Origin: Acidimicrobiales bacterium
GTDB taxonomy: Bacteria > Actinomycetota > Acidimicrobiia > Acidimicrobiales > AC-14
Length of the DNA: 64,000 bases
Reading direction: 5' to 3'
NCBI GenBank assembly: GCA_035494015.1
Contig: DATJHJ010000030.1
Span: 5,047 to 69,046, forward strand
This document shows, piece by piece, positions 36,565-60,196 of this stretch. The position numbers and the translations under genes are program-made. How positions within the stretch are numbered: the stretch's first letter is position 1; each line of letters starts with the position of its first letter. The notes beneath the pieces were generated by a model. It did no database searches, had not been told where the DNA came from, and saw only the letters and a list, made by a program, of their open reading frames with translations.

Positions 36565-36565
36565 C

Positions 36566-44086: not shown

Positions 44087-45148
44087 ATGGGGCACGAGCG
44101 CACGACCAACCTGGCGGAGCACCGGCTCCGCCGCGGCGACCCAGCGCGGCTCGACCTGTCCGCCGGCCTGAACCCGTACGGGCCGCCGGCCGCAGTGCTC
44201 GACGCCCTCCATGCGCTGACGGCCGCCGACGTCGCCGTCCCGCCGGACCACGCCGCCGAGCGCCTGGAGGCTGCCTACGCCGCTGCGCTGGGCGTCGACC
44301 CGTCCGAGCTCATCGCCGGCCGCGGCCCGGCGGAGTTCCTCTGGGACCTCGGGCGCCTGGTCCCCCACCACGCCGTCGCCGTCCCCCTGCCGGCCTGGGG
44401 CGAGGTGCTCGACGTCTTCCCCACCCGCGGCTTCTCCCGGTACCCGGGCGAGCAGCTGCCCTCCGTCGCCCAGCTCGACGAGGCCCTCGACGTGGCCGAG
44501 CTGGTGGTCGTGTCCAACCCCCAACTCCCGTCCGGGCTGACCCTGGACCGCGAGGGCCTGCTCGACGCCGCCGAGCGACATCCGGCGTCGACCCTCGTCG
44601 TCGACGAGGCCGCCGTCGACTTCCTGCCCGACCCCGGCGCGGCAACGCTGGTCGGCGCCGACGTCGACAACGTGATCGTGCTGCGCTCGACCGCCGAGTT
44701 CTACGGCACGGGCGCCACGCGCACCGGCGTGGCCTGGAGCCGCGACCGGCGGCTGCTGCGTGAGCTGTTCGGCCACCGCGAGGCCCGGCCCATCTCGGGG
44801 CTCGACGCCCTGGTGGCCGAGGCCGCCCTGGCCGCCACCGGCTGGGCCGACCAAGCCCGGCGACGGCTGGCCGCCGACGGGGCCTGGCTGAACGCCATCC
44901 TCCAACCCCTCGGCGGCCGCCTGACCGGGTCCGAGCTGCCCTACCGCTACCTCGTTTCCGATGATGCGGTCGAGTGGGCCGACGTGCTCGCCGGCCAGGG
45001 CGTGCGCGTCCGCGCCGTCGGGCCCGAGCACGGCGTCCACCCCGGGGCCCTCGGCGTCTTCGCCCCTCGGGACACGGACCGCCCCGTGCTGGCCGCCGCC
45101 CTCGGCGCGGTCCGCACCAGCCCCCCGGCCTTCAGCGAGGCCGGGTAG
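44087..45148 (+). CDS. class I/II aminotransferase-fold protein (CobD/HisC-like) lacking the PLP-binding lysine
   Basis: 353 aa. LDLSAGLNPYGPP, SNPQLPSG and LVVDEAAVDF align to the CobD/HisC family. The lysine motif S-x-[ST]-K-F-Y reads STAEFY (K->E). Confidence 0.75.
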   Translation: MGHERTTNLAEHRLRRGDPARLDLSAGLNPYGPPAAVLDALHALTAADVAVPPDHAAERLEAAYAAALGVDPSELIAGRGPAEFLWDLGRLVPHHAVAVPLPAWGEVLDVFPTRGFSRYPGEQLPSVAQLDEALDVAELVVVSNPQLPSGLTLDREGLLDAAERHPASTLVVDEAAVDFLPDPGAATLVGADVDNVIVLRSTAEFYGTGATRTGVAWSRDRRLLRELFGHREARPISGLDALVAEAALAATGWADQARRRLAADGAWLNAILQPLGGRLTGSELPYRYLVSDDAVEWADVLAGQGVRVRAVGPEHGVHPGALGVFAPRDTDRPVLAAALGAVRTSPPAFSEAG

Positions 45149-45159
45149 ACCCCCAGGCG

Positions 45160-45189
45160 GGCTCGGCCAACCCCCCTTTTGGCCGAGCC
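45160..45189. terminator. hairpin between convergent aminotransferase-like gene and folP
   Basis: ggctcggccaa-cccccctt-ttggccgagcc, an 11-bp perfect stem. The loop ends with a short T run on the + strand. It is deleted in repeat copy B. Confidence 0.5.
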
Positions 45190-45202
45190 GCCTGCGCGGG
45201 TC

Positions 45203-46084
45203 TCAGCGGGACTGGTGGCGCAGCTCCTCGGGCAGCACCAGGTCGGCCGGCGGCGCATCGGGGCCGGCGACGGCGTCGAGCACGGTCAGCATGTCCAGCG
45301 TGGCGGCCACGTCGTGGACCCGCAGGATCTGCTGGGGCACGTGGCGGACCGCCGCCACCGCGCCGAGCGTGCCCGCGCCCCGGTCCGCCGGCGGCCGGCG
45401 GGTCAGCGCCCCGACGAAGTCCTTCCGCGACAGGGCCAGGAGCACCGGGCGACCGAGGGCGACGACGGCGTCCAGCCCCCGCAGCAGGGCCACCGACTGC
45501 CCCGGGGTCTTGGCGAAGTCGACCCCGGGGTCGACCACGATCGAGTCGATGCCGACCCCGGCGTCGACGGCCGCCGCCACCCGCGCGGCCAGGAACGCGG
45601 CCACCTCGGCGGCCACGTCGCCGTAGAGGCCAGGGTCCTGGCGGCGGACCAGCGGCGGCGCCGAGGTGTGCATGACGACCAGGCCGGCCCCGGCGTCGGC
45701 GCACAGGCGGGCCAGCTCCGGGTCCCGCAGGCCGGAGACGTCGTTGACCAGGTGGGCCCCCGCGGCCAGGGCGGCCTCGGCCACCGCGGGCTTGAACGTG
45801 TCGACCGAGACCAGCACGCCGGGCCACCGGGCGACCACCTCGCGGACGACCGGCACGACCGCGCCCGCCTCGTCGGCAGGATCGGCGGGCGCCCGGTTGG
45901 TGATGGCCGACTGAGCGCCGACGTCGAGGGCGTCGGCGCCCGCCGCCACCAGGGCGCCGGCCCGGAGGACGATCTCCCCCAGGCTCCGGGTGCCCGGATC
46001 GGAGAAGGAGTCGGGGTTGGCGTTGACGACCCCCATCAGCAGGGGCCGCTCCCAGGTCACTATCCGGTCCCGCACCCGCAGCAC
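45203..46084 (-). CDS. folP: dihydropteroate synthase
   Basis: LLMGVVNANPDSFSD, DVGAQS, VSVDTFKP, LVNDVSG, IVVDPGVDFAKT and RVHDV are DHPS motifs. The start is uncertain (GTG 46084, GTG 46075 or TTG 46093). Confidence 0.88.
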   Translation of the reverse strand: MLRVRDRIVTWERPLLMGVVNANPDSFSDPGTRSLGEIVLRAGALVAAGADALDVGAQSAITNRAPADPADEAGAVVPVVREVVARWPGVLVSVDTFKPAVAEAALAAGAHLVNDVSGLRDPELARLCADAGAGLVVMHTSAPPLVRRQDPGLYGDVAAEVAAFLAARVAAAVDAGVGIDSIVVDPGVDFAKTPGQSVALLRGLDAVVALGRPVLLALSRKDFVGALTRRPPADRGAGTLGAVAAVRHVPQQILRVHDVAATLDMLTVLDAVAGPDAPPADLVLPEELRHQSR

Positions 46085-46120
46085 GGCCGCCAACCTAACG
46101 GCGGTGCCGGCGCCGGCCGG

Positions 46121-46126
46121 TAGGCT
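46121..46126 (+). promoter_or_regulatory. candidate -10 hexamer TAGGCT 9 nt upstream of ATG 46136
   Basis: Conserved with identical spacing in repeat copy B (58688-58693 / ATG 58703). No Shine-Dalgarno sequence lies between it and the ATG. Confidence 0.3.
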
Positions 46127-46135
46127 GGCCGGCGG

Positions 46136-46537
46136 ATGGAGGTGCTGCCCACACCCGACCAGGAGCTGGGACGGCGGCTGGCCGGCGTCGAGGACCGGCT
46201 CGACGCCATCAGCGAACGGCTCGGCCGGCTCGAGCTGTCCCTGGGCGACACGGTGGCCGCCGAGGTCCACGAAGCCACCGCCGAGCTGCGCCGGGCCATC
46301 AGCGAGCTCGGCCGCCGCCTGGTCCAGGATCTGCCCACCCAGCTGGCCCGCCACCGGGACCTGATCGTGGCCGAGGTCCGGGCCGCGGCCCCGCCCCCAC
46401 CGCCTCCGCCCCCGCCACCGCCACCCCCGCCGGGCCCCGAGCCCGAGGCGGAGGCGGAGATCGTCGTCGAGGGTTCAGAGGCCGCCGTTGCCGACGAACG
46501 GCGCCGCGCCTCCCGGCGGCGCCGGCGCCAGGCGTAG
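46136..46537 (+). CDS. small coiled-coil protein with 14-residue polyproline run and Arg-rich C-terminus (hypothetical)
   Basis: 133 aa. MEVLPTPDQELGRRLAGVEDRLDAISERLGRLE..., 14 consecutive Pro codons at 46391-46432, and the end ERRRASRRRRRQA. A paralog lies at 58703-59071. Confidence 0.65.
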   Translation: MEVLPTPDQELGRRLAGVEDRLDAISERLGRLELSLGDTVAAEVHEATAELRRAISELGRRLVQDLPTQLARHRDLIVAEVRAAAPPPPPPPPPPPPPPGPEPEAEAEIVVEGSEAAVADERRRASRRRRRQA

Positions 46538-46549
46538 CCGGGCCCGAGG

Positions 46550-46684
46550 ATTCGGATCGGCTTCGACGGCACCCCCCTGCTCGGTTCCCGGACCGGGGTG
46601 GGCTGGTACACCCTCGACGCCGCGGCCATCGTGCACCGCCGCTCCGGCAAGTTCGTGCTGGAGGCGTCCGCCAACGGCGTCTGA
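46550..46684 (+). pseudogene. 5' stub of a GT4 glycosyltransferase gene (start codon ATG->ATT; homology lost after about 25 codons)
   Basis: (I)RIGFDGTPLLGSRTGVGWYT aligns with MRIGFDGTPLLGSKTGVGWYT of the intact gene at 59084. It sits at the same 13-nt distance from the small-ORF stop. Confidence 0.8.
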
Positions 46685-46807
46685 TCTCGCACGGTGTGCG
46701 CCGGTCGTCCGCACCGGGTGCCCGGCCACCCAACGGCTACGCTCCGGCCACCACGGGCGCGGTGCTCGCGGGGACGACGATCTGGTCGTCGTCCGAGAAG
46801 GAGCACA

Positions 46808-47326
46808 TTGCGACGGTTCGGTTTCCAGCGGCCCGGCGTCATCACCGCGCTCGCCTCAGCGCTCATATTCTTCCCTCTCGCCGGCGCGGCGTGGGCGCCC
46901 AGCGGCCACAACTGGAACAGCCAGATGCCCTTCACGGGCACGATCCGCTCCAGCGTCGGCGGCGAGACCGTCGAGCTGAGCGGGCGGATGCACGTGGTGA
47001 TCGACGTGAGCGGCACGGAGACCACCGGCTTCAACGTTGGCCTGCACGCAAACCTGGACGAGACCGCGGGCACGGGGGAGACGAGCGGCCAGCCCTACAT
47101 CGGCGACGGCGCCGACCAAGCCAGCGTGCAGCTCGCACCCGGACCCCTGGCCGGCTCGGTGTCCTTTTCCCCCAGCTTCGTGCTCCATCCGCCGAGCCCG
47201 TGCCGAATTGGGCATCCGCCCGGCCCCTGCCATGCCACCAGCGCCCTTGGCGCTCATGTCACCGTGTCATTCAACACAGACGGCACGTCCGTCGTGGTCG
47301 CGCTCGACGATCCTGCGAGTACCTGA
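46808..47326 (+). CDS. secreted hypothetical protein
   Basis: TTG 46808 has AAGGAG 4 nt upstream. The signal peptide is LRRFGFQRPGVITALASALIFFPLAGAAWA. No family recognised. Confidence 0.55.
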   Translation: MRRFGFQRPGVITALASALIFFPLAGAAWAPSGHNWNSQMPFTGTIRSSVGGETVELSGRMHVVIDVSGTETTGFNVGLHANLDETAGTGETSGQPYIGDGADQASVQLAPGPLAGSVSFSPSFVLHPPSPCRIGHPPGPCHATSALGAHVTVSFNTDGTSVVVALDDPAST

Positions 47327-47401
47327 GCGCGAGACACCTTGTCGGCGGACACCAACGGGCTGTTCCACGACCACCGCAATGTCGTCGCGGGCTGCCTGCG
47401 G

Positions 47402-48745
47402 TCAGGGAGCGCGTGCGGCGTCTACCGGGAGAGGCCGGCGCGATGCCCGCCAGGCCCGCAGGAGATGGTCGGGGCGGGCCATCAGCTCAGGGCGCGCTTG
47501 GAGGTTGAGGACCCGGAGAAAGAGGCGGTGCGTCGCGACGTCACGCAGTGTCGCCTGGGTGTAGAGGTCATTGACGTGCTGGGTCAGCCACAAACCCCGC
47601 GGCCGGTCGCCGGTGACATGGCTCAGCCGGAAGTCGGCCGTCGTCGACAGCGTCCATACCGAATCGACCACGGAGCGCAACCGCCGGAAGTAGCCGGCGG
47701 CCGGCTCGAACGGCGTGGCGCCAGAGTCGAGGTATGCGCCGATCTGGGCCGCGTGAAGGGCGGCGGACGTCATCCCCTGGCCGTAGATCGGGTTGAACGA
47801 AGCGACCGCGTCCCCGGCGGCGAGGAAGCCGCCGGGGAGCCTCGTACAGCGGTCGTAGTCGCGCCGCACGCTGGCCGGGTACCGGAACGTGACGACGTCG
47901 GTGAGGGCGTCGTCGCGGGCGGCGAACCCCTGCAGCGGGACGGCGGGGTCCGTCGCGAGGCGGGACGAGAAGTCGGCGGGGTCCATCGTGGGACGGTCGT
48001 CGTGGTAGCCACCGACCGTCACGATCCACCGCGCCCCCTCGACGGCGAAGGCCGCCGACCCCCGGAACCCGTCGGCTCGCTCGACCACGGAGAGAATGCC
48101 TCGGGCGCCGCCGAGTCGGTCCCCGGGCTGACGGGGGAACAACCGCGTGGCATAACCCAATTCGACGTTCACCGTCCGGCGGGGCGGCGCGTCGTACCCC
48201 AGCGCGCCCAGCCAGGCGTCGGCGCGACTGGTACGCCCGGAGCAGTCGACGACCAGGTCACCCTTGAGGTGCTCGCCAGCGGTCGTTTCGGACGGCGCCT
48301 CGAGTACAACGCCGTCGACCGTGCCGTCGGTGGCGGTGAGGCGGTCGACTCGACCATGGACCATCGTGACCGCGCGGAGAGCGGTCAGCCGCCGGCGCAG
48401 GTGGGCCTCGAGAAAGGGCCGGGTGCAAGCGATGCCGTTCCCGATCCCCGCCGGAGGCTTCCGTTCACCCGCCACGTACCAGTGGAGATCGATGCCCGGG
48501 TCGGCGACCTCAGCGCCCTCAGCGGCGAGCTCCGCCATGATGCCCGGGAACAGTCGCTCCATCTCCTCCAGGCCCCGGGCGAGAAGCCCGTGTACGTGCC
48601 GTCCCTGCGGCACGCCCTTCCGTCCGGCGGGGGCGATGCCCAGCTCGTCCCGGTCGACGACCACCACCTCGTCGGCGTGGTCCGTGAGGACACGGGCGGC
48701 GAGGAGGCCGGCGACGCTCCCGCCGATCACCAGGGCGCGCTTCAC
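47402..48745 (-). CDS. FAD-dependent monooxygenase/oxidoreductase
   Basis: 447 aa. MKRALVIGGSVAGLLAARVL (GxGxxG) ...DRD, and a DxxxxxNPxxGQG-like GDAVASFNPIYGQGMT. Confidence 0.8.
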   Translation of the reverse strand: MKRALVIGGSVAGLLAARVLTDHADEVVVVDRDELGIAPAGRKGVPQGRHVHGLLARGLEEMERLFPGIMAELAAEGAEVADPGIDLHWYVAGERKPPAGIGNGIACTRPFLEAHLRRRLTALRAVTMVHGRVDRLTATDGTVDGVVLEAPSETTAGEHLKGDLVVDCSGRTSRADAWLGALGYDAPPRRTVNVELGYATRLFPRQPGDRLGGARGILSVVERADGFRGSAAFAVEGARWIVTVGGYHDDRPTMDPADFSSRLATDPAVPLQGFAARDDALTDVVTFRYPASVRRDYDRCTRLPGGFLAAGDAVASFNPIYGQGMTSAALHAAQIGAYLDSGATPFEPAAGYFRRLRSVVDSVWTLSTTADFRLSHVTGDRPRGLWLTQHVNDLYTQATLRDVATHRLFLRVLNLQARPELMARPDHLLRAWRASRRPLPVDAARAP

Positions 48746-48798
48746 GTCCCAATGGCTACCAGAGGGAACGGGATCGCCAGGTTCGTCAGACTGGAGAC

Positions 48799-49364
48799 GT
48801 GCATTCTCCTCTCGTCCGCCGCGGGCTCGGCGCGGTGGTCATGACATTCGCCGTTGCGACCGCCTGCGGCAATCCGGAGTCGGCGGTACGGTCCGAGGGC
48901 CAAGCCCGCCCCACCACGATCGTGCCCACGTCCGGCACGCTGGGCGGAGGGCCGAGCACCGTCGTACCCGCCACGACCTCGACCACCGCTCCCGCCGGCG
49001 CGGTCGCGACATCGACGACAACCCCGGCGGCGGCAGTCGCGGCCGTGCGGGGCACGGTGCTCTTTAGCCCGGTCTGCCCGGTCGAGCGCATACCACCCGA
49101 TCCCCAGTGCGCCCCCCGTCCCGGCACGGCCGACATCCAGCCGACATCCAGCTCGTGCGCGCGGACACCACCATCGCCGCTCAACGCCGGGCCGGCCTGG
49201 ACGGGCAGTTCAGCGCGGTTGTTGCCCCCGGCTCCTATACCGTCCGGGCCACATTGCCGGCTCCGGGGCCGGGCACGGGGTGCCAGGTGGAGCCATCACA
49301 GGTGACGGTCGGCGCCCGCGCCGTCGCGCTCGTGGCCGTCCGCTGCGACACCGGCATCCGCTGA
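48799..49364 (+). pseudogene. lipoprotein gene interrupted by an 11-bp tandem duplication (frameshift)
   Basis: The signal/lipobox MHSPLVRRGLGAVVMTFAVATAC is in frame 1 (track ORF 48799..). After 49151 the sensible translation (LVRADTTIAAQRRAGLDGQFSAVVAPGSYTVRATL...VAVRCDTGIR) continues in the frame of track ORF 49107-49364. Removing one 11-bp unit fuses the two. Confidence 0.7.
49130..49151 (+). repeat. perfect 11-bp tandem duplication ccgacatccag x2
   Basis: Read directly: ...cggcacggCCGACATCCAGCCGACATCCAGctcgtg... Confidence 0.95.
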
Positions 49365-49377
49365 GCCAGGCGGTTCC

Positions 49378-50940
49378 TCAGGTCCCGGGGATCGAGGCCG
49401 GCCCCGGTGCGGGGCGCTCGGGCAGTGTCATGGGCGGCCGGGGGGGCTGCGTGAAGTCGAAGGCGGCCGTGATGTCGCCGAGCTGCTTGGCGTCCTCGCG
49501 TACGTCGGGCCTGGGATCGGGCCGGCCGTCCGTCGCCGGGTCCAGCCGCTGGCCGCCCAGGAAGTCGTCCTCGATGAACTTGGCGTAGGCGTCGAAGCTG
49601 AGGGTCTGGTGATCGATGTAGCCCTTCTTGGCGTAAGGGCTGATCACGAGGCCGGGGACGCGTAGCCCGTAGCCGTTCTCGTCGACCTTGGGGGGGACGA
49701 CGTGGTCGTAGAAGCCGCCCCAGTCGTCCCACGCCAGGAAGATGGCCGTCGAGCTCCAGTCCGGCCCGTTCATCACCGCGTTGACCAGGCTGGTCACATA
49801 GGCCTGACCCGCAGAAGTCGCGCCCGGCGGGTGCTCGCTGACCGCGCCCGACGGCACCACCCACGACACCGCCGGCAGCGCCCCCGCCTTGGCCTGGCTG
49901 TAGAAGTTCGCCACGGACTGGATGTCGGCCTCCTGGCCGTCCTGACGGACCGTGTCAAAGAAGGGCAGCGGGTTCCAGATGCCCGGCGTCTTGGCGTCCT
50001 GCTTGACCGGCGCGCAGCTGAGGGCGGCGTCGTTCTGGCAGTCGGGTTCCGTCCCGGTCACCACGTAGTACCCCCAGCTCACGTTGTTCTTGTGCAGGAG
50101 GTACGTCAGGTCGGTCCAGGGGTAGTCGGGCCCCTTCACCGGGGCAACCTGGTCGCCCTCCGCGTCGGTCCCAGACGGCGCCGTGGTCGAAGTCGTGGCG
50201 GCCGCCTTCCCCCCGGCCGGCGCCTTGGCCTTGGCCTTGGCCTTGGCCTTCGCTTTCGACGTGGCCGTGCCCGCGGCGACGTTCGGGTTGGCGGGATTCT
50301 GCAGCGCGTTGACGCAGCTCGACGGGTCACCGGCCTCCGAGCACAGCGCCGACCACTCCGAAACCATGAAGAGGTGCTCGGGGAGGCTCCACGACGCGTT
50401 GGGCTCGAACATGTGGTCCTGAAGCACGAAGTTCTGGGCGTAGGCCCAGTAGTTCGGGATCTCGCGAGCGTCCTTCCACCCCATCACATCGGAGCCGTTG
50501 CCGTTGGCGCAGGCCGGGTTGTTCGGGTCGGCGCACCCCTTCGCCGCTTTGGTCACCGACTCGACGAACCCGTCCATCTTGCCACCGTCCACGTCGGCGA
50601 CCGCGTTGACCTCGCCGTGCGGGCCGCCGCCGTTGACGTCGGCATCGTCGTGGAACGGCTTCCGGCACGGTCCGGCTGGAGCGGGCAGGCACACTGTGGG
50701 CTGGCCATCCTTCATGGGAATGCCGTCGGCACCCGGATAGGTGCCGAAGTACGTGTCGAAGGAGCGGTTCTCCTGCATGATGACGATGACGTGGCTGATC
50801 TTGTGGATGCCGCCTGAGGCCGCGACCGTACTGGCGGGGCCGGGGCCGGACGACGGCGTTCCGGTCGGCGACGAACAGGCTGCGAGCAGGGCGGCGCCCG
50901 CGGCGATGGCCACCATCGAGGTCCGGGAGTGGCGGGTCAT
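49378..50940 (-). CDS. phosphoesterase-family lipoprotein (phospholipase C / AcpA-like acid phosphatase)
   Basis: ATG 50940 with GAAGGAGA upstream. [22 protein letters not shown] lipobox. [21 protein letters not shown] is the PF04185-type signature. It has an internal (KA)n insertion. Confidence 0.85.
50222..50257 (-). repeat. in-frame hexanucleotide repeat (GCCTTG)x4 plus two degenerate units encoding (KA)n
   Basis: gccttggccttggccttggccttggccttcgctttc encodes [13 protein letters not shown] inside the phosphoesterase. Confidence 0.9.
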
Positions 50941-51067
50941 GGTGGGACGATCTCCTTCTGGTGTTGGGTCACGAAGGGGATCCCATGAAGCTTCTATGAG
51001 GAAGCGGCGGATGCACGTCACCCGCGCCCGGGCCGCCGTGAGCCCGACCGTCGGCTCACCGATGACG

Positions 51068-51403
51068 CTACGTGGCGACGACCTCGTAGACCGCGGCGTG
51101 GATGGAGAAGGCGCTCAGCCGGCCGGACGCCTCCTGGAAGCCCTGGCTCTGGGTGGCGGCCCGGAACGCGTCCGGGTTCTCCCAGCGGGTCACGTTCACG
51201 AACCGGAAGTCCGGCGCCGCCGATACCGCCTTGTGCAGCTTGGTGCTCATGAGACCGGGCTGGTTCTTCATGAACGCCTGGGCCCGGTTCCACGAGTCGA
51301 GGAAGCGCTCCGAGTCCTCCGCCGAGACCTCGTACGCCACGATCGCCGTGACCGGCTTGTTCGTCAGCTCTTCCACTGCAGGCCTCCCCGTCGTTGTCGC
51401 CAC
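51068..51403 (-). CDS. antibiotic-biosynthesis-monooxygenase (ABM) domain protein
   Basis: 111 aa. ...[40 protein letters not shown]...[16 protein letters not shown]... is the typical ABM ferredoxin-like pattern. Confidence 0.75.
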
Positions 51404-51470
51404 TGACCGTCGAACGGGCCCATCGTAGTAAGGGGTCGGGGTCAGCGGGGACCTGCTCTACCATCGGGCC

Positions 51471-52460: not shown

Positions 52461-52490
52461 CGTTCCGCGGGTCGACGAGAGGGGGCGGAC

Positions 52491-52985: not shown

Positions 52986-53004
52986 GGCGGGCTACCGTCC
53001 GCCC

Positions 53005-53472
53005 GTGGCCCTTCCCGTCCCGCCCGGCGACGAGAAGGAGCTCCTGCTCGGCTGGCTGCAGTTCCTGCGCGAGTCCGTGCTGCGCAAGGCGGAGGGGCTC
53101 GACGAGGACCAGGCCCGGTGGCGGCCGGATGGCAAGCTCATCGCCATCGCCGGGATCGTCAACCATCTGGCCCACGTCGAGTGGCGGTGGATCGACGGGA
53201 CGCTTCGGGGCGAGCCGGTGTCCCGCAGCGAGGACGAGTTCACCGTCCCCCGGGACCGCCCCTTCGCCGAGGTGGTCGACGCCTACCGCCGGCGGGCGGC
53301 GGCGACCGACGCCACGGTGCGGGGGGCGGACCTTGACGCGGCCTGCCACCATCCCGGCCATCCCGGCATCGACCTGCGGTGGGTCCTGCTCCACCTGATC
53401 GAGGAGACGGCCCGCCACGCCGGCCACGCCGACGCCACCCGGGAATTGCTCGACGGTGTGACCGGGGTCTGA
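53005..53472 (+). CDS. DinB-family (DUF664) protein
   Basis: 155 aa. WVLLHLIEETARHAGHADATRE plus IVNHLAHVEWRW. Paralog of 10564-11142. Confidence 0.8.
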   Translation: MALPVPPGDEKELLLGWLQFLRESVLRKAEGLDEDQARWRPDGKLIAIAGIVNHLAHVEWRWIDGTLRGEPVSRSEDEFTVPRDRPFAEVVDAYRRRAAATDATVRGADLDAACHHPGHPGIDLRWVLLHLIEETARHAGHADATRELLDGVTGV

Positions 53473-54237
53473 TTGGTCCACGAGGTCGCCGCCGTCGGGT
53501 TCGGGCGCGAGGCGGCGGCCTACGAGCGCTCCCGGCCGTCCTACCCGCCTGCGGTCGTCGCCTGGCTGGTCGAGAACCTGCGGATCGGCCCCGGCGCGGT
53601 CGTGGTCGACCTGGCGGCGGGAACGGGCAAGCTCACCCGCCTGCTGGTCCCCGCGGGGGCGGCGATCGTCGCCGTCGAGCCGGTCGTGGGGATGAGCGAG
53701 GTGTTCCGGGAACTGCTGCCCGAGGTGCCGCTCGTCGCCGGCACCGCCGAGGCCCTGCCGGTCCGGTCGTCGTCGCTCGACGCGGTGTGCGTGGCCCAGG
53801 CCTTCCACTGGTTCAACGCCGATGCCGCCTTCGCCGAGCTGGCCCGGGCGCTGCGGCCGGGCGGCCGGGTGGGGATCGTGTGGAACGCCCGGGACCGCGC
53901 CGTCGATTGGGTCGACCGGGTGTGGGGCGTGATGGATCACGTCGAGCGTCGCGCCCCGTGGCGGGACCACGAGAACTGGCGGGAGTCGGCCCTGGGGGCG
54001 CGGCCGGGGTTCGGCCCCCTGCACAGCGCGACCTTCCGTCACGAGCAGCCCACCACGCCGGAGGGCATCGTCGACCGGATACGGGGGGTGAGCCACGTGG
54101 CCGTCCTCCCGGCGGACGAGCGGGCCGAGGTGCTCGACGAGGTGCGCCGCATCCTGGCCGAGCACCCGGACACCAGCGGGCGCGACCAGCTGGCCGTCCC
54201 GTACCGGGTCGACTGCTTCTGGGCCGAGCGGCGCTGA
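53473..54237 (+). CDS. class I SAM-dependent methyltransferase
   Basis: TTG start immediately after the DinB stop (TGATTG). VVDLAAGTGKLT motif I and LRPGGRVGIVWN. Confidence 0.8.
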   Translation: MVHEVAAVGFGREAAAYERSRPSYPPAVVAWLVENLRIGPGAVVVDLAAGTGKLTRLLVPAGAAIVAVEPVVGMSEVFRELLPEVPLVAGTAEALPVRSSSLDAVCVAQAFHWFNADAAFAELARALRPGGRVGIVWNARDRAVDWVDRVWGVMDHVERRAPWRDHENWRESALGARPGFGPLHSATFRHEQPTTPEGIVDRIRGVSHVAVLPADERAEVLDEVRRILAEHPDTSGRDQLAVPYRVDCFWAERR

Positions 54238-54242
54238 CGCAG

Positions 54243-54659
54243 GTGTACCTCGACCCGTCCGACGAGAGCGCCCGGGCCCTGTTCCGGCGGGGCATCGACG
54301 GCCCGGTCACCATGCTCAACCTGCTGCGGTTCCGAGAATGGGCCGACTATTCCGAGTTCCCCGCGCTGGCCCCGGCCCAGCCGATCTCCGGCGCCGACGC
54401 CTACGACCGCTACGTTCGCCACACCCTCCCGTTCCTGGCGGCCCGCGGCGGCTCGGTGACCTTCTTCGGCGCCGGCGGCCCCTGGTTCGTGGGGCCCGGC
54501 GACGAGCGGTGGGACCTGGTCATGCTCATCCGCCAGGCCAGCGTGGCCGACTTCTTCGCCTTCGCCACCGACGAGGGCTACCTGGCCGGCATCGGCCACC
54601 GGACGGCGGCGCTGGAGGACTCCCGGCTCCTCCCGATCGTCGACCGTCCCCTGCCCTGA
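54243..54659 (+). CDS. DUF1330-like protein
   Basis: GTG 54243, 5 nt after the methyltransferase stop. 138 aa. ...VTMLNLLRF...YDRYVRHTLPFLAARGGSVTFFG...WDLVMLIRQASVADFFAF...YL... resembles DUF1330 (dimeric alpha-beta barrel). Confidence 0.6.
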   Translation: MYLDPSDESARALFRRGIDGPVTMLNLLRFREWADYSEFPALAPAQPISGADAYDRYVRHTLPFLAARGGSVTFFGAGGPWFVGPGDERWDLVMLIRQASVADFFAFATDEGYLAGIGHRTAALEDSRLLPIVDRPLP

Positions 54660-54674
54660 CCGGCCGGGCTGCGG

Positions 54675-55139
54675 TCAGTACTCGTTCTTGATGACGAAGT
54701 AGGAGCCGCGGATGGTCCCGGCCAACTTCGACTTCTGCCTGGCGAACTTGAACCGGGAGGCGAGCTCTTCGGGTATCTCCATCCCGTCCGAGAGCTTGAA
54801 CCCGACCGCCCGCTTCTCGGGGCCGTCGACGGTGTACATCACGTTGATCGACAGGCCGCTCTCGTAGAAGACGTAGGCCATGCGGATGTTCTCGACCTGG
54901 AAGGCGGTGGCCTCCAGGGGCGGGGACGAGATGACGATGTCCCGTTCTTCCTTGAGGATCCGGTGCACCCACTCGATGGTGTCGGCGGCGTCGCTGGCCG
55001 GCTCCACCGTGAAGTCGTGGTCGTACTTGTTCTTGAAGTAGCGGGCCTCGTTGGCCCGGAGACCGGCGAGGGCGGCGGCGACCGGCGACGACTCCAGGCC
55101 GACGGTCGAGACGTTGTGAAAATCAACGGGGGAGGCCAC
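54675..55139 (-). CDS. orphan hypothetical protein, compositional outlier (lower GC, Lys/Asn/Tyr/Phe-rich)
   Basis: GTG 55139, 154 aa, ending ...RFKFARQKSKLAGTIRGSYFVIKNEY. GC is about mid-50s to 60% by eye against about 70% background. No family recognised. Confidence 0.55.
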   Translation of the reverse strand: MASPVDFHNVSTVGLESSPVAAALAGLRANEARYFKNKYDHDFTVEPASDAADTIEWVHRILKEERDIVISSPPLEATAFQVENIRMAYVFYESGLSINVMYTVDGPEKRAVGFKLSDGMEIPEELASRFKFARQKSKLAGTIRGSYFVIKNEY

Positions 55140-55179
55140 GCCGGTCCCGAGGTTACTGGCTACTGCGGCGGTGACGCGA

Positions 55180-56142
55180 TCAGGCCACCCGGTCGAGCCC
55201 CTGGCGGCCAGGGCCCATCCCGCCGGGCCCGGGCGCGCTGGTCGAGGTGCGACCGGTGGGGCCGGGCGAGCGGACGACGGGGTAGCCGTCGTCGTCCCAG
55301 TCGAGGGCGGCCCAGCGGATCTCGCGGTCGGCCCAGCCGGGATCGCCACTCACCTTGCGGTGGTAGACCAGGCGGGGCCCGTCGGGGGTGTCGACGACGC
55401 AGCCGTGGCCGCCGCCGACGAAGAAGGGGCGGGGCAGCTTCTCCCAGGACCTGGGATCGGCGACGTCGCCCCCGGTGTGCTCCAGCAGGCCCATCTTGTA
55501 GGCCTGGGTCCAGCTGGCGTCGGCGGCGTAGAGCACGAACAGGCGGCCGGTCGCCGGGTGCCGGATGACCTCCGGGCCCTCGTTGACCGGGGCGACGCTC
55601 ATCTCCCAGCCGTGCTGCGGTCGCGACAGGCACCGCCGCTCGCCGTCGATGGTCCACGGGTTCGACATGGGCGCGATGTACAGGTTCTGGGGGAAGCCGT
55701 CGTCGGGGCCTTCCCAGCCGGACCACAGGGCGTACAGGCGGTCGCCGTCGGCGAAGACGGTGAGGTCGATGGCCCACACGTCGTGGCCCCGGTCGACCAC
55801 CGGCCCGAGGGGCTGGTAGGGGCCGAGCGGGCCGTCGCCCACCAGGGCGTAGGTCCGGTGGTTGGCGCTGCGCCCGTCGCTGGCCGCGTAGTAGACGTAC
55901 CAGCGGCCGTCGATCTCGTGCAGCTCGGGCGCCCAGACCTGGCGCTCGGCGCCGTGGGCCGACCAGATGACCGTCTCGGTGTTGCGGTCCATCCGGTCGA
56001 AGTCCTTGAACCGCTTGACGACGATGCGCCGGTTCCCACCCGCGGTCTGCACGAGCAGGTAGGACCCGTCGTCGTCGGCGACCACCCACGGGTCCTGCCC
56101 GGGGAAGGGCCGGCGCTCCCGGAACGCATGGAGCAGGTTCAC
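55180..56142 (-). CDS. glycoside hydrolase family 43-like protein, no signal peptide
   Basis: GTG 56142 (GTGA overlap). FPGQDPWVVADDDGSYLLV, VWAPELHEIDGRWYVYY, IDLTVFADGDRLYALW and NEGPEV match the Asp/Asp/Glu GH43 pattern. Confidence 0.78.
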   Translation of the reverse strand: MNLLHAFRERRPFPGQDPWVVADDDGSYLLVQTAGGNRRIVVKRFKDFDRMDRNTETVIWSAHGAERQVWAPELHEIDGRWYVYYAASDGRSANHRTYALVGDGPLGPYQPLGPVVDRGHDVWAIDLTVFADGDRLYALWSGWEGPDDGFPQNLYIAPMSNPWTIDGERRCLSRPQHGWEMSVAPVNEGPEVIRHPATGRLFVLYAADASWTQAYKMGLLEHTGGDVADPRSWEKLPRPFFVGGGHGCVVDTPDGPRLVYHRKVSGDPGWADREIRWAALDWDDDGYPVVRSPGPTGRTSTSAPGPGGMGPGRQGLDRVA

Positions 56143-56678
56143 GTGGGGATCCAGGCGCTCAGCGGGGTGGCGATCCGGTCGGTGAGCAGGGCGAGCAGCC
56201 AGCCGGTCGTGAGCAGCCCCCACAGGGTCACGGTGGCGGCGATCAGGGCCACGCTGTCGTCGTCGCGGAGATAGGAGACGATCGGGACCACCCACACCAG
56301 GCTGCGCAGGAGCCGGCGGGCGGGCTTGTTGGCCAGGTCGGCCGACAGGGCGTCCACGCAGTAGACGACGAAACCCATGGTCGCTTCGGCGGCGATCGGA
56401 AATGCTCGGCTCCCCAGCCGGTCGTACTCCAGCGTGAGCAACCAACCCATCGTCACCAAGAACCACACCACGGCCCCAAAACGTCCCAACTTGGCCACGT
56501 TTCGGTGGGTGAACCACCGGGTCAGGGTGACCATCCACAGCAGGGCCCGGGCCAGGCGCTCCCCCGCCGGCCGGCCTTCGTCCCCCACCGCGTCGGCGCA
56601 GGACACGACGAACGCCAGCGTCACCTCGGCGAGGAGAAGGGCGATCATCGCTGCCGCCTCCGGCGGCGCGAGCGACAC
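56139..56678 (-). CDS. hypothetical 4-TM membrane protein with internal two-fold duplication
   Basis: AEVTLAFVVSCADAV...RLARALLWMV...GWLLTLEYDR aligns with AEATMGFVVYCVDAL...RLLRSLVWVV...GWLLALLTDR. ATG 56648 is an alternative start. Confidence 0.6.
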   Translation of the reverse strand: MSLAPPEAAAMIALLLAEVTLAFVVSCADAVGDEGRPAGERLARALLWMVTLTRWFTHRNVAKLGRFGAVVWFLVTMGWLLTLEYDRLGSRAFPIAAEATMGFVVYCVDALSADLANKPARRLLRSLVWVVPIVSYLRDDDSVALIAATVTLWGLLTTGWLLALLTDRIATPLSAWIPT

Positions 56679-57011
56679 GGGAACCCCGGGGGGCGCATAC
56701 CTCCAGGATCGGCCCTTCCGGCGGGTTACTTGATCAGCCGTTTGCGGCCGAGCGCACCGCCTTCGCCGCCTTCTTGGCCGTGGTCGCAGGGGTCGCCCGG
56801 ATGCCCATTATCGGCGGATCGCCTACGCCTATCTCGACCTGCAGGCCAAAGGCTGGAGCCGAGGCCTGCTCGCCGAGCTCGCCAAACAGGAATGCCAAGT
56901 CGGGACTGGGTGCACCGGGCACGGGTCTTGGGCTTCTTGTCTGGCGCAAGCCTAGGGCGTGCCGGTCGTCTTCCTGGCCCCAGACTGCACGACGCGAACT
57001 AGGGGACCGTA

Positions 57012-57055
57012 AGGTCAGACTCTTCACAGCAGGTCAGGTCCTCCACATCAGGTCA
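57012..57055 (+). repeat. three AGGTCA direct repeats at exact 19-bp phasing
   Basis: AGGTCA at 57012, 57031 and 57050, in stop-rich lower-GC DNA about 120 bp from the 3' end of the recombinase remnant. Confidence 0.8.
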
Positions 57056-57173
57056 ACTCGTTCTAGATCGAACCGGTTGAGCCCCTGATGGGCGGGCCCG
57101 ATCGCGATCCGATCCACGAGCGTGCCGACGACCGCTCGGCGGCGCTCCAGGCTCAGATCCGATCACGCGGCCC

Positions 57174-57587
57174 TCAGTACGCCCGGCTGTTGGACGAAAC
57201 CGTCGAGGACGCTCGTGCCACGTTGCCGGCCGTGCCGTCGCTTGGCGGCTCCAGGCGCGCCCCGACGCCTTTCCTGGCGACCATCCGCTCCCGCGAGATC
57301 CGGTCCTCGGCCCAGCCCGCCGCGAGCTCTTCGAGCTTTGCCTCGGCGGCCGCGAACCCTTCGGCGGCCGCACGCTGTTCGTCGTCGCGGCCCTGCATGC
57401 GAATGGCCTCCGCCAGCTCCGGGCCGTCCACGCGCTGCATGACCGCCTCGACCAGCAGGTCCTCAAGCGGCTGCGCGACGACCCGCACCCCTCCACGGCC
57501 GCCCCGCCCCGGGCCCGACGAGCACGTGTAGCTGCGGTTCCGGTCGGCCCGCGGTTGGGCGATCAGCCGGGTGCCGCAGCGGCCACA
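57174..57587 (-). pseudogene. 3' remnant of a large serine recombinase gene (zinc-ribbon + coiled-coil part only)
   Basis: Own reading of track ORF 57174-57758: CGRCGTRLIAQPRADRNRSYTCSSG...VVAQPLEDLLVEAVMQRV...AAAEAKLEELAAGWAEDRISRERMVAR. This is the CxxC...YxC zinc beta-ribbon plus C-terminal coil. The catalytic resolvase and recombinase domains are missing, and the breakpoint abuts repeat copy B. Confidence 0.6.
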
Positions 57588-58150: not shown

Positions 58151-58159
58151 CGCGGCGGC

Positions 58160-58622: not shown

Positions 58623-58687
58623 GGCCGACCAAACCTAAACGGGGCGGTCGTCCGGCGCGGGCCGGCGGCGGATCAGGGTTCGGGCGG

Positions 58688-58693
58688 TAGGCT
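58688..58693 (+). promoter_or_regulatory. candidate -10 hexamer TAGGCT 9 nt upstream of ATG 58703
   Basis: Same hexamer and spacing as at 46121-46126. Confidence 0.3.
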
Positions 58694-58702
58694 GGCCGGC
58701 CG

Positions 58703-59071
58703 ATGGAGGTGCTGCCCACGCCCGACCAGGAGCTGCGGCAGCGGCTGGCCGGGGCCGAGAACCGGCTGGACCCCATCGGCGAGCGGCTGGGCCGCCTGGA
58801 GCTGCCCTTGGGCGACACCGTGGCCGTCCAGGACCTTCCGTCCCAGCTGGCCCGGCACCGGGACCTGATCGTGGCCGAGGTGCGGGCCGCGGCCGCGCCA
58901 GCCCCCCCGCCGTCGCCGTCCCCCGCGCCGCCGACCACCGAGGTCGGGATCAAGGTCGACGGCCCGCCCTACCCCGAGCCCGAGCCCGACATCGAGGTCG
59001 ACGGCTCGAGGGTGGGCACGGCGGTAGCCGAGCGACGGCGCGCCCACCGGCTGCGCCGGCGCCAGGCGTAG
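58703..59071 (+). CDS. small coiled-coil / Pro-rich protein, paralog of 46136-46537
   Basis: 122 aa. Same N-terminus (MEVLPTPDQEL...) and C-terminus (ERRRAHRLRRRQA). It lacks a 22-residue heptad segment, and the polyPro run is replaced by APAPPPSPSPAPPTTEVG...PYPEPEPD. Confidence 0.65.
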   Translation: MEVLPTPDQELRQRLAGAENRLDPIGERLGRLELPLGDTVAVQDLPSQLARHRDLIVAEVRAAAAPAPPPSPSPAPPTTEVGIKVDGPPYPEPEPDIEVDGSRVGTAVAERRRAHRLRRRQA

Positions 59072-59083
59072 CCGGGCCCGAGG

Positions 59084-60196
59084 ATGCGGATCGGCTTCGA
59101 CGGCACCCCCTTGCTCGGTTCCAAGACCGGGGTTGGCTGGTACACCCACGAGCTGATCGACGCCGCGGCCAAGCTGGCGCCGCAGGACGAGATGGTCGTG
59201 TTCCCCATCTCGTGGCGCACGGCCCGCCACCTGAACCTGGACCCGCCCCACCGCCGCAACGTGAGCGTGGAACGCAAGCTGGCCCCGGCTCGGCCCTTGT
59301 GGGCCATGTGGGACCGGGTCCAGTTCCCGCCGGTCGAGTGGCTGGTCGACTGTGACGTCTTCCACGCCACCAACTTCATCGCCCCCCCGTCGCGCAAGGT
59401 GCCGATCGTGGTCACCGTGCACGACATCGGCTTCGTCCATCACCCGGAGGCGGTGACCCCCGGCGTGCGCCGGATGGCCCGCCTCCTGCCCGACATCCTG
59501 CGCCGGGCCGCCGCCATCATCACCGTCTCGAGCTTCACCTGCCAGGAGCTGGTGGGCTGGCTGCCCGAGGTGGCCGAGCGGGTCACGGTGATCCACAACG
59601 GCAGCCATGGCCGCGCCGCCCCCGCTCCCGCCCCGGCCACCGCTGCCAAAGGGGCCAGCCCGCCCTACGCCCTCATGCTCGGGACCCTGGAGCCCCGAAA
59701 GAACCTGCCCCTCGCCCTCGACGCCCTGCGCATCCTGCGCCGCCGCGGCGTCGACCTCCGGCTCGTGCTGGCCGGCGGCAAGAGCGCCCTGCTCGACGTC
59801 CCCGCCCTCTTGCGCAAGCGGGGCCTGGGCGAGCCCGAGGTGACACGCACCGGCTACATCGACGACAGCAGGGTCTCCGCCCTCCTGGCCGGCGCCCGGG
59901 TCCTGGTCTTCCCGTCGCTCTACGAGGGTTTCGGCATGCCCCTGCTGGAGGGCATGGAGGCCGGGGTGCCGGTCGTGGGCGTCCGCGCCGGGGCCACGCC
60001 TGAGACGGTCGGCGACGCCGGCCTGCTGGTCGACCCCGGCGACGCCGAGGGCTTCGCCGACGCCATGGAACGGGCGGCCTTCGACGAGGATCTGCGGGCC
60101 ACCCTCGTCGCCGCCGGCCGGGAGCAGGCGGCCAAGTTCACCTGGCAGCGCGCCGCGGCGGCCACGCTCGACCTCTACCACGCCGTCCACCACTGA
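59084..60196 (+). CDS. GT4 (GT-B fold) glycosyltransferase
   Basis: 370 aa. MRIGFDGTPLLGSKTGVGWYT, TLEPRKN and FPSLYEGFGMPLLEGMEAGVPVV (EX7E). Confidence 0.85.
   Translation: MRIGFDGTPLLGSKTGVGWYTHELIDAAAKLAPQDEMVVFPISWRTARHLNLDPPHRRNVSVERKLAPARPLWAMWDRVQFPPVEWLVDCDVFHATNFIAPPSRKVPIVVTVHDIGFVHHPEAVTPGVRRMARLLPDILRRAAAIITVSSFTCQELVGWLPEVAERVTVIHNGSHGRAAPAPAPATAAKGASPPYALMLGTLEPRKNLPLALDALRILRRRGVDLRLVLAGGKSALLDVPALLRKRGLGEPEVTRTGYIDDSRVSALLAGARVLVFPSLYEGFGMPLLEGMEAGVPVVGVRAGATPETVGDAGLLVDPGDAEGFADAMERAAFDEDLRATLVAAGREQAAKFTWQRAAAATLDLYHAVHH

What the first reader, a model, noticed from the sequence alone, without database searches (positions are those of the whole stretch)
44499..59171. About 2-kb homeologous direct repeats bracket an 11-kb island: footprint of a Campbell-type (single-crossover) integration
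Copy A (44499-46627) contains the 3' two-thirds of the aminotransferase-like gene, a hairpin, an intact folP, the small ORF, and then only the first 25 or so codons of a GT4 gene whose ATG is mutated to ATT. Copy B (57587-59171) has the same order. It starts abruptly inside the aminotransferase-like gene, has folP destroyed by about 190-bp and about 360-bp deletions plus indels, and then runs into the intact GT4 gene. The left copy is therefore truncated on its right and the right copy on its left. This is exactly the product of a circular element carrying an internal fragment of this locus recombining once with the chromosome. Identity is only about 86% (42 mismatches in 300 nt counted by eye). 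The incoming fragment was therefore either homeologous (from a related lineage) or the event is old. The 10.96 kb in between ends with a truncated large serine recombinase.
Basis: partly seen in the sequence, partly recalled or inferred. Interest (0 to 1): 0.7.

Follow-up and report, generated by a model that had tools for sequence, protein, structure and literature searches.

The report
Island flanked by diverged locus copies
In an uncultured soil Acidimicrobiales bacterium, an 11-kb block of accessory genes ending in a dead integrase gene sits between an intact and a decayed, roughly 82%-identical copy of the neighbouring aminotransferase-folP-small ORF locus; this is a real but fairly ordinary scar of DNA imported from a related lineage and joined in by homologous recombination.

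Summary
Copy A (44499-46628) and copy B (57587-59171) are collinear direct repeats at 74-82% identity, bracketing 10,958 bp. Copy A is intact up to a 26-codon GT4 stub whose ATG has become ATT. Copy B starts inside the aminotransferase gene, carries a wrecked folP and a small ORF missing 21 conserved residues, then runs into the intact GT4. Its left edge abuts the C-terminal remnant of a large serine integrase.

It is not an assembly artefact. Seven contigs from seven other soil metagenomes span the right junction and one spans the left, all at 99% identity or more. Relatives show the empty site, with aminotransferase, folP, small ORF and GT4 contiguous and no island genes.

A, B and the closest relative (L109) form a near-trichotomy. 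Substitutions unique to B are enriched at third codon positions (24/22/47, p=0.002). Copy B therefore evolved as working genes for about 70% of its branch, so it is homeologous imported DNA rather than an old in-place duplication.

A Campbell-type single crossover of a circle fits everything. Two linear, one-ended-homology scenarios leave the same footprint and cannot be excluded. This is an instance of a known process; interest is modest.

The parts
44087..45148 (+). Intact class I/II aminotransferase gene (CobD/HisC-like, 353 aa). Its 3' two-thirds, from 44499, form the start of copy A.
   Evidence: Pfam PF00155 at E 1.6e-12. NCBIfam CobD-like match, below the curated cutoff. An identical protein is on JGI contig L021.
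44499..46628 (.). Copy A of the direct repeat. All genes are intact except the terminal GT4 stub.
   Evidence: blastn and MAFFT alignments.
45149..45202 (.). GC-rich hairpin between the convergent aminotransferase and folP genes, probably a bidirectional terminator. It is deleted in copy B.
   Evidence: Fold energy -43.1 kcal/mol, z -7.25. The alignment shows the deletion in copy B.
45203..46084 (-). Intact folP (dihydropteroate synthase, 293 aa).
   Evidence: Pfam Pterin_bind at E 7.6e-61. NCBIfam DHPS equivalog at 243 bits, above the 162.6 cutoff. Corresponds to P0017, annotated in the NCBI MAG.
46136..46537 (+). Small conserved ORF, copy A (133 aa, proline-rich, Arg-rich C-terminus). It is full length compared with all relatives.
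   Evidence: 94% aa identity to L109 and 78% to L012. Protein comparison with relatives.
46550..46628 (+). GT4 stub of about 26 codons. The start codon ATG has become ATT, and there is a 9-nt deletion before homology ends.
   Evidence: Alignments with copy B and six relatives. Sequence read directly.
46629..57586 (.). The 10,958-bp island. Genes, left to right:
- 46808-47326(+): secreted protein.
- 47402-48745(-): FAD-dependent oxidoreductase.
- 49378-51021(-): phosphoesterase / phospholipase C-like.
- 51068-51403(-): ABM-domain protein.
- 51471-52460(+): beta-helix protein.
- 52491-52985(+): PG_binding_1 protein.
- 53005-53472(+): mycothiol S-transferase / DinB.
- 53473-54237(+): methyltransferase.
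- 55183-56142(-): glycoside hydrolase family 43.
- Several hypothetical ORFs.
   Evidence: Pfam searches. JGI gene calls on L022. No island protein hits any of 15 relative loci. The next-best FAD homologue in JGI metagenomes is 44% identical or less.
57034..57586 (-). Large serine recombinase (integrase) pseudogene. Only the zinc ribbon, coiled coil and C-terminus remain. Roughly 280-380 N-terminal residues, including the catalytic domain, are missing, and there is a frameshift near 57200.
   Evidence: Three-frame translation. Pfam Zn_ribbon_recom at E 1e-3. PHROG_95 integrase positions 379-564 of 651, E 4.7e-9. 31% identity to Gordonia and Mycobacterium plasmid recombinases.
57587..59171 (.). 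Copy B of the direct repeat, degenerate throughout:
- 57587-58153: aminotransferase fragment.
- 58153-58640: folP remnant.
- 58703-59071: small ORF copy B (122 aa), lacking 21 conserved residues.
- From 59084: start of the intact GT4.
   Evidence: Independently assembled in L016-L020 and L022-L028.
59084..60196 (+). Intact GT4 glycosyltransferase (370 aa). It is continuous with the conserved downstream synteny: a ricin-lectin protein, then two more GT4 genes.
   Evidence: Pfam Glycos_transf_1 and Glyco_transf_4. 85-88% aa identity to relatives, with the same downstream genes.

Best explanation
About 13 kb of DNA from a related Acidimicrobiales lineage entered this lineage and was fixed by one RecA-type crossover between homeologous sequences.

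Composition of the imported DNA: a roughly 11-kb cargo island ending in a large serine integrase gene, physically joined to a 2.1-kb piece of that donor's own aminotransferase-folP-small ORF-GT4 (5' end) locus.

Simplest topology (Campbell type): a non-replicating circle recombines once with the resident locus. The circle is [aminotransferase 3' fragment - folP' - small ORF' - first ~26 codons of GT4' | island | integrase C-terminal fragment]. The product is resident-left / island / resident-right. The left copy ends where the captured fragment ended, giving the GT4 stub. The right copy begins where the fragment began, inside the aminotransferase gene.

Origin of the circle. It could arise from a donor in which the integrase element sat in GT4'. 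Either aberrant excision (as for lambda gal/bio transducing DNA) or end-joining of a 13-kb fragment taken up by the cell would create the integrase|aminotransferase joint.

Aftermath. The redundant copy decayed: folP-B by two deletions and four frameshifts, small ORF-B by loss of 21 conserved residues, and the stub by ATG to ATT. The integrase is dead and the repeats are only about 82% identical, so the island is effectively locked in.

Shown: the structure, its reality in natural populations, the empty site in relatives, and the homeologous origin of copy B.

Inferred: the circular intermediate, the position of the crossover, and the origin of the circle.
For: - Reciprocal truncation of collinear direct repeats around 10,958 bp.
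- Empty site in relatives. L003 and L007 have ThiF - unknown gene - aminotransferase - folP - small ORF - GT4 - ricin-lectin gene - GT4 contiguous. L012, L004 and L008 have folP - small ORF - GT4 contiguous. No island protein hits any relative locus.
- Both junctions are present in independent soil metagenome assemblies.
- The integrase remnant is truncated exactly at the edge of copy B, as expected if that joint closed the circle.
- Homeologous origin. A, B and L109 are nearly equidistant. In the aminotransferase segment the pairwise differences are 93, 80 and 85 over 529 nt, and quartet counts are 10:6:10. In folP they are 89, 58 and 71 over 482 nt.
- Changes unique to B fall at codon positions 1/2/3 as 24/22/47, non-uniform at p=0.002. 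For A the counts are 16/10/49 and for L109 9/9/31. B therefore has only a mild excess at positions 1+2 (Fisher p=0.05).
- GC3 of the aminotransferase fragment in B is still 0.96.
- My estimate from these counts: about 30% of B's branch was neutral.
- Single-crossover integration of circularised incoming DNA is an experimentally documented fate of non-replicating DNA (PMC3240628).
Against: - No crossover point or hybrid structure could be demonstrated. A and B are equally distant from every available relative, so it is unknown which part of each copy is resident and which is imported.
- Copy A is intact along its whole length and copy B degenerate along its whole length. That fits equally well if A is entirely resident and B entirely imported, which needs no crossover inside the repeat.
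- RecA-dependent exchange at about 18% divergence is very inefficient. Transformation falls log-linearly up to 15% divergence in B. subtilis (PMC6382021).
- The island carries no replication, transfer or packaging genes, so how a circle would form and move is unexplained.
- No donor lineage was found. Nothing in 5.8 billion proteins is closer to B than A and L109 are.
Confidence: 0.42

Rival explanations
1. Integrase insertion followed by a homeologous patch repair.
- The serine-integrase element first inserted site-specifically into this lineage's own GT4 at about codon 26-30. That left the resident stub joined to the island as attL and disrupted GT4.
- Later, linear chromosomal DNA from a related lineage (aminotransferase' - folP' - small ORF' - GT4') recombined homologously inside or beyond GT4.
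- At its other end it was joined illegitimately inside the integrase gene. This is homology-facilitated illegitimate recombination.
- The event deleted the integrase N-terminus and attR, and restored an intact GT4 with its own upstream region.
- The imported aminotransferase fragment, folP' and small ORF' were redundant and decayed.
For: - It explains every boundary with two standard events: the stub ending at the island edge, and the integrase cut exactly at the edge of copy B.
- Copy A is intact throughout and copy B degenerate throughout, right up to the GT4 start.
- GT4 is the most conserved gene of the neighbourhood, 85-88% aa identity in all relatives, so restoring it would be selected.
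- Weak phylogenetic incongruence. This genome's GT4 is closest to L002 (87% nt) and not to L012 (84%). The adjacent ricin-lectin gene is clearly closest to L012 (85% against 76-80% for the others).
Against: - No attB or attL features were recognised at the stub/island joint.
- No relative has an integrase element in GT4.
- The GT4 phylogeny is star-like, and the incongruence could come from L012's own divergent middle segment.
- It requires a period with GT4 inactive.
Confidence: 0.27
2. One-step import of linear donor DNA. In the donor chromosome, the island and an already truncated integrase lay directly upstream of a truncated aminotransferase' - folP' - small ORF' - GT4'. A long linear fragment recombined homologously in GT4 or downstream of it. 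Its other end was joined illegitimately at codon ~26 of the resident GT4. Copy A, stub included, is entirely resident. The island, copy B and the start of GT4 are foreign.
For: - It gives the same footprint and the same homeologous signal as the other import models.
- It requires only one event in the recipient.
- Integration of foreign DNA with homology at one end only is documented (PMC3240628).
- This locus is structurally variable among relatives. L109 has a peptidase M10 / hemopexin gene between folP and the small ORF. L012 and L004 lack the aminotransferase.
Against: - It needs a donor that had lost a functional aminotransferase while still keeping folP' under selection.
- It gives no reason why the illegitimate joint should fall inside GT4, so close to the homologous exchange.
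- No such donor was found.
Confidence: 0.13
3. Old duplication in place. The aminotransferase fragment - folP - small ORF - GT4 5' segment was duplicated within this lineage, by tandem duplication or unequal exchange, with the island at the joint. The two copies then diverged to 82% where they sit.
For: A and B are each other's best match among the GTDB relatives in every segment. They share derived bases around the GT4 start.
Against: - The aminotransferase fragment in B is 5'-truncated, so it would have been non-functional from the outset. Yet changes unique to B are non-uniform across codon positions (24/22/47, p=0.002) and GC3 is still 0.96.
- At the protein level B's branch is only about 1.6 times A's (my arithmetic on the identities). 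Neutral evolution would predict about 5-10 times.
- L109 is closer to both A and B than they are to each other, yet it carries a single copy and no island.
- An island landing exactly at a duplication joint is an extra coincidence.
Confidence: 0.07
4. Assembly artefact: a chimeric join of two strains or a mis-resolved repeat.
For: The window comes from a metagenome-assembled genome (NCBI TPA MAG, 98,857-nt contig).
Against: - Seven contigs from seven other samples span the right junction and one spans the left, at 99.1-99.8% identity.
- The copies are only about 82% identical. From my reading of the alignment, the longest exact runs they share are roughly 35 nt, too short for an assembler to collapse or swap them.
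Confidence: 0.01

Closest known systems
Campbell-type (single-crossover) integration of a non-replicating circle carrying a chromosomal fragment. Examples: suicide-plasmid insertion, and lambda gal/bio transducing DNA integrating by homology.
   Same: Direct repeats of the target flank the insert. The left copy is truncated on its right and the right copy on its left. The empty site is contiguous in relatives.
   Different: The repeats are homeologous (about 82% identical), not identical. No circular form, replicon or hybrid junction could be shown. The carrier is an 11-kb cargo island with a dead serine integrase, not a plasmid or phage.
Homology-facilitated illegitimate recombination: integration of foreign DNA anchored by homology at one end only. 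I recall it from Acinetobacter, S. pneumoniae and P. stutzeri. PMC3240628 reports it for E. coli conjugation, and PMC6382021 discusses it.
   Same: Foreign DNA is joined by one homologous exchange and one illegitimate joint. Donor-recipient divergence is in the range (above 15%) where this route is thought to take over. Gene restoration has been proposed as an outcome.
   Different: Described events usually insert 1 kb or less and delete some recipient DNA. Here 11-13 kb was retained, and the imported homologue sits beside the resident one. Microhomology at the illegitimate joint cannot be checked without the parental sequences.
Prophages and elements that carry a diverged copy of the end of their target gene, such as e14 and phage 21 in the E. 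coli icd gene (recalled from memory, not checked here).
   Same: After insertion the target gene stays intact because the element-side copy supplies one end. A displaced, diverged pseudo-copy remains at the other end of the element.
   Different: Those elements use tyrosine integrases with a short identity segment and duplicate about 50-170 bp of the 3' end. Here about 2 kb is duplicated, including two whole upstream genes. The recombinase is a truncated serine type, and serine integrases do not need or create such homology.
Large serine recombinase cargo islands without transfer genes of their own, such as SCC-type elements (recalled from memory).
   Same: A roughly 11-kb set of accessory genes for secreted or cell-envelope proteins, with a large serine recombinase gene at one end and no conjugation or phage genes.
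   Different: The recombinase lacks its catalytic N-terminal half and is frameshifted. No att sites were identified. The flanking repeats are kilobase-scale homeologous DNA, not att cores.

Membership tests
Campbell-type single-crossover integration footprint | Same-orientation duplication of a target segment flanking the inserted DNA. | tested here: met
   Three collinear plus/plus HSPs, with E as low as 1e-161, flank 10,958 bp.
Campbell-type single-crossover integration footprint | Reciprocal truncation: the left copy is continuous with the left flank and ends internally; the right copy begins internally and is continuous with the right flank. | tested here: met
   Copy A continues into the aminotransferase 5' part, the unknown gene and ThiF, and ends at GT4 codon ~26. 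Copy B starts at the position equivalent to 44499 inside the aminotransferase gene and continues into GT4 and the downstream synteny.
Campbell-type single-crossover integration footprint | An unoccupied site with a single contiguous copy exists in relatives. | tested here: met
   L003 and L007 show the full locus. L012, L004, L008 and L001 show folP - small ORF - GT4. None has island genes.
Campbell-type single-crossover integration footprint | Each copy is a hybrid of resident and incoming sequence, switching at one crossover point inside the repeat. | tested here: inconclusive
   A, B and the nearest relative L109 form a near-trichotomy (quartet 10:6:10). The GT4 phylogeny is star-like. No genome is close enough to either parent.
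Campbell-type single-crossover integration footprint | A circular intermediate. | not testable with these tools
   Testing this needs reads or PCR across a circle junction, or the donor element.
Homology-facilitated illegitimate recombination | One end joined by homologous exchange, the other by an illegitimate joint, usually with 3-10 bp of microhomology. | not testable with these tools
   Both illegitimate joints are defined (46628/46629 and 57586/57587). The parental sequences needed to score microhomology are unknown.
Site-specific integration by a large serine recombinase | An intact recombinase with the N-terminal catalytic (resolvase) domain. | tested here: not met
   Only PHROG_95 positions 379-564 of 651 remain. 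There is no resolvase or recombinase domain, and there is a frameshift. It may have been intact at an earlier stage.
Site-specific integration by a large serine recombinase | Recognisable attL and attR flanking the element. | tested here: inconclusive
   No inverted-repeat or att-like feature was noted at either joint. No intact relative of the element was found to define attP.
Plain tandem or in-place duplication | The truncated, non-functional copy evolves neutrally from the time of duplication, and relatives descended from the duplication share it. | tested here: not met
   Changes unique to B are 24/22/47 by codon position (p=0.002 against uniform) and GC3 is 0.96. L109, L003, L007 and L012 all have single copies.
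Dihydropteroate synthase (folP), copy A | Full-length Pterin_bind / DHPS match above the curated cutoff. | tested here: met
   TIGR01496 at 243 bits against a 162.6 cutoff. Copy B lacks 121 internal codons and the C-terminus and has four frameshifts.

The most novel reading that the evidence does not exclude
The scar records a two-step rescue. A serine-integrase island knocked out a conserved glycosyltransferase gene. The gene was then repaired by a patch of homeologous DNA from a sister lineage, which simultaneously decapitated the integrase and locked the island in place. If so, this would be a natural example of inter-lineage recombination restoring an insertionally inactivated gene and domesticating a mobile island, in an uncultured actinobacterial class with no genetics.
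Probability: 0.27. Interest if true: 0.45.

Novelty: new member of a known kind. Interest (0 to 1): 0.3.

Why it matters
It is a clean, independently verified natural example of recombination across about 18% sequence divergence fixing an 11-kb accessory island in a soil Acidimicrobiales population. The class is uncultured and nothing is known of its gene-transfer routes. The codon-position test separates an imported homeologue from an old duplicate, and it dates the insertion to roughly the last third of copy B's branch. The case also shows how an integrase-borne island can become immobile. It does not reveal a new mechanism. The value is as a documented instance and as a worked method.

Tried and rejected
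- Exact-protein look-ups of small ORF A, the 194-aa antisense/integrase ORF and the first island protein found nothing. Strain-level indels and different gene calls explain this.
- A 28-mer from the 3' end of small ORF A found no metagenome contig. L029 later showed that the other strain differs by two substitutions and a 3-nt insertion inside that 28-mer.
- Donor search. The translated aminotransferase fragment of B found nothing closer to B than A and P0006 are. Scored against the 120 best folP-A hits, the conceptual folP-B is closest to P0018/L109 at 82%, against 80% for A. No donor was found.
- Intact integrase search. Only the same-species remnant (P0015) and a 47%-identical 137-aa fragment turned up. 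Plasmid hits are 31% identical.
- The reading frame after the stub ('HRRSGKFVLEASANGV*') looked like a ricin-lectin repeat. That would have implied the duplication once extended through GT4 into the next gene. blastn and tblastx against the window gave no support, so the idea was dropped.
- Mapping a crossover from GT4 and flank phylogenies failed. GT4, ThiF and the second GT4 are star-like. The link between this genome and L012 is clear only in the ricin-lectin gene.
- A 56-nt stretch at the small ORF stop / GT4 start, identical between A and B apart from ATT/ATG, was considered as a crossover tract. By my reading of the alignment, identical runs of about 28-35 nt also occur elsewhere, so it is not an outlier.
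- No tRNA genes are present, so a tRNA-targeted island is excluded.

Full report
**Source and gene map**

The window is from an uncultured Acidimicrobiales MAG. ORF 57571-58443 is NCBI protein VL337_03550, on a 98,857-nt contig. The closest GTDB genomes are all Acidimicrobiales or Acidimicrobiia MAGs.

GC3-guided ORF choice and Pfam/NCBIfam searches give this map.

| Coordinates | Strand | Feature |
|---|---|---|
| 41914-43194 | - | MoeB/ThiF-rhodanese gene |
| 43241-43921 | + | unknown gene |
| 44087-45148 | + | class I/II aminotransferase |
| 45149-45202 |. | strong hairpin (-43 kcal/mol, z -7.25) |
| 45203-46084 | - | folP |
| 46136-46537 | + | conserved small ORF |
| 46550-46628 | + | GT4 stub |
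| 46629-57586 | . | island |
| 57587-59171 | . | second, damaged copy of the locus |
| 59084-60196 | + | intact GT4 |

Downstream of the intact GT4 lie a ricin-lectin protein gene and two more GT4 genes.

Yes. blastn gives three collinear HSPs between 44499-46628 and 57587-59171: 82.3% over 569 nt (E 1e-161), 80.8% over 255 nt, and 73.6% over 840 nt with gaps.

- The abrupt start of copy B inside the aminotransferase gene.
- A deletion of about 190 nt removing the aminotransferase 3' end, the hairpin and the folP 3' end.
- A 363-nt deletion in folP.
- ATG changed to ATT at the stub (46550-46552).

I add three findings. The folP remnant has four frameshifting 1-2-nt deletions. The stub has a 9-nt deletion. 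Small ORF B has lost 21 residues (AEVHEATAELRRAISELGRRL) that are conserved in every relative. Copy B is therefore degenerate along its whole length up to the GT4 start, and copy A is intact along its whole length up to the stub.

The truncated recombinase is also real. On the minus strand, translation begins at the zinc-ribbon motif CGRCG exactly at 57584-57586, continues through a coiled-coil-like stretch, and shifts frame near 57200. It ends with a typical C-terminus at about 57034. It matches positions 379-564 of 651 of PHROG_95 'integrase' and Pfam Zn_ribbon_recom weakly. The catalytic half is absent.

**Is it an assembly artefact?**

No. Looking up the remnant's called protein (P0015) returned seven contigs from seven JGI soil samples. 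They align to the window at 99.6-99.8% and all cross 57586/57587. The longest, L022, covers 50900-58027, and L024 covers 55461-58923.

A scan with the island's FAD-oxidoreductase returned L029, which covers 45397-50347 at 99.1% and crosses 46628/46629. Other contigs cover the interiors of both copies, including both folP deletions.

**Is there an empty site?**

Yes. Scanning GTDB representatives with GT4 gave 13 Acidimicrobiales or Acidimicrobiia loci. tblastn of all window proteins against them shows:

- L003 and L007 have ThiF - unknown gene - aminotransferase - folP - small ORF - GT4 - downstream genes, all contiguous.
- L012, L004, L008 and L001 have folP - small ORF - GT4 contiguous.
- No island protein hits any of these loci.

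The island's FAD gene has no homologue above 44% identity in the JGI metagenome collection other than the same species.

**Homeologous import or old duplication?**

Among GTDB relatives, A and B are each other's best match. A folP search then found a closer relative, L109. Across the aminotransferase and folP it is 87% identical to A and 84-86% identical to B, while A and B are 82% identical to each other.

| Measure | Aminotransferase (529 nt) | folP (482 nt) |
|---|---|---|
| Pairwise differences A-B / A-L109 / B-L109 | 93 / 80 / 85 | 89 / 58 / 71 |
| Quartet counts, rooted with L003 and L007 | 10:6:10 | not computed |

This is a near-trichotomy.

Lineage-specific changes by codon position 1/2/3, aminotransferase and folP combined, are:

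| Lineage | Position 1 | Position 2 | Position 3 |
|---|---|---|---|
| A | 16 | 10 | 49 |
| B | 24 | 22 | 47 |
| L109 | 9 | 9 | 31 |

- B's changes are far from uniform (chi-square p=0.002). B shows only a mild excess at positions 1+2 (Fisher p=0.05).
- GC3 of the aminotransferase fragment in B is still 0.96.
- A 5'-truncated gene fragment cannot have been under selection where it now sits. Most of B's divergence must therefore have accrued while it was a working gene elsewhere.
- A simple two-phase calculation on these counts puts about 30% of B's branch in the neutral phase. This is my inference, not a fitted model.
- That is enough time for the observed indels. It also fits the structure being fixed in all sampled populations.

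**Mechanism**

The Campbell model reproduces the footprint exactly. A circle carrying [aminotransferase 3' fragment - folP' - small ORF' - GT4' 5' end | island | integrase fragment] recombines once with the resident locus. It also gives a natural role to the integrase|aminotransferase joint, as the joint that closed the circle. Single-crossover integration of circularised incoming DNA is documented (PMC3240628).

Two linear, one-ended-homology scenarios give the same product.

1. **Insertion then patch repair.** The integrase element first inserted into the resident GT4 at about codon 26-30. A homeologous fragment later recombined within or beyond GT4 and joined illegitimately inside the integrase gene, restoring GT4.
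2. **One-step linear import.** A single linear fragment carried the island and the donor locus. The illegitimate joint was in the resident GT4.

Both predict that copy A is wholly resident and copy B wholly foreign, and that matches the decay pattern. At more than 15% divergence this route is thought to become relevant (PMC6382021).

The one hint that GT4 itself may be foreign is weak. Its nearest relative is L002 rather than L012, whereas the next gene is clearly closest to L012. I could not discriminate between the models without a genome close to either parent.

I therefore rate homeologous import joined by one homologous exchange at about 0.8 overall. Within that, the Campbell version is at about 0.4.

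**Comparison with known systems and verdict**

The structure works like textbook single-crossover or one-ended-homology integration. It resembles elements that carry a diverged copy of their target's end. It is not a functional serine-integrase element now. This is a new, well-documented instance of a known process in an understudied lineage, and interest is modest.

Noticed in passing
L027:1469-1569 (diverges from the window at 56952): One metagenome contig matches the window from 58419 down to 56952. It then switches, at a CTAG, into unrelated sequence encoding 'MPVMTAPPLVLSDEQRSALE'. This looks like the N-terminus of an IS630-type transposase, so it is probably a strain-level IS insertion just downstream of the integrase remnant.
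   Followed up: partly
L109:521-2005: The closest relative of the locus carries an extra 494-aa PG_binding_1 - peptidase M10 - hemopexin gene between folP and the small ORF. L012 and L004 lack the aminotransferase gene. The stretch between the unknown gene and GT4 is therefore a variable spot in this clade.
   Followed up: partly
window 46405-46543: Between the window and contig L029, strain-level differences cluster in the low-complexity 3' end of small ORF A and the spacer just after its stop codon: a 6-nt insertion, a 3-nt insertion, a 1-nt deletion and three substitutions. From 46544 to 50002, which includes the left junction, there is only one difference.
   Followed up: no
window 33575-35409 and 35598-37470: A second direct repeat at about 75% identity. 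It corresponds to two tandem pairs of oligopeptide/dipeptide ABC-transporter ATPase genes (ABC_tran + oligo_HPY). They lie next to a permease and a family-5 solute-binding protein, and look like ordinary tandem paralogues.
   Followed up: partly
window 13161-13203 and 35532-35584: Two near-perfect palindromes (43 nt at 98% and 53 nt at 91%) turned up in the self-comparison. The second lies between the duplicated ABC ATPase pairs.
   Followed up: no
window 10661-10728 versus 53377-53444: A 68-nt inverted match at 87% links the island's mycothiol S-transferase/DinB gene to a gene at 10564-11157 (-). This suggests a paralogue elsewhere in the window.
   Followed up: no
window 61068-61451: Three 144-nt tandem units at 73-75% identity are the three beta-trefoil repeats of the ricin-lectin domain in the gene downstream of GT4.
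   Followed up: yes
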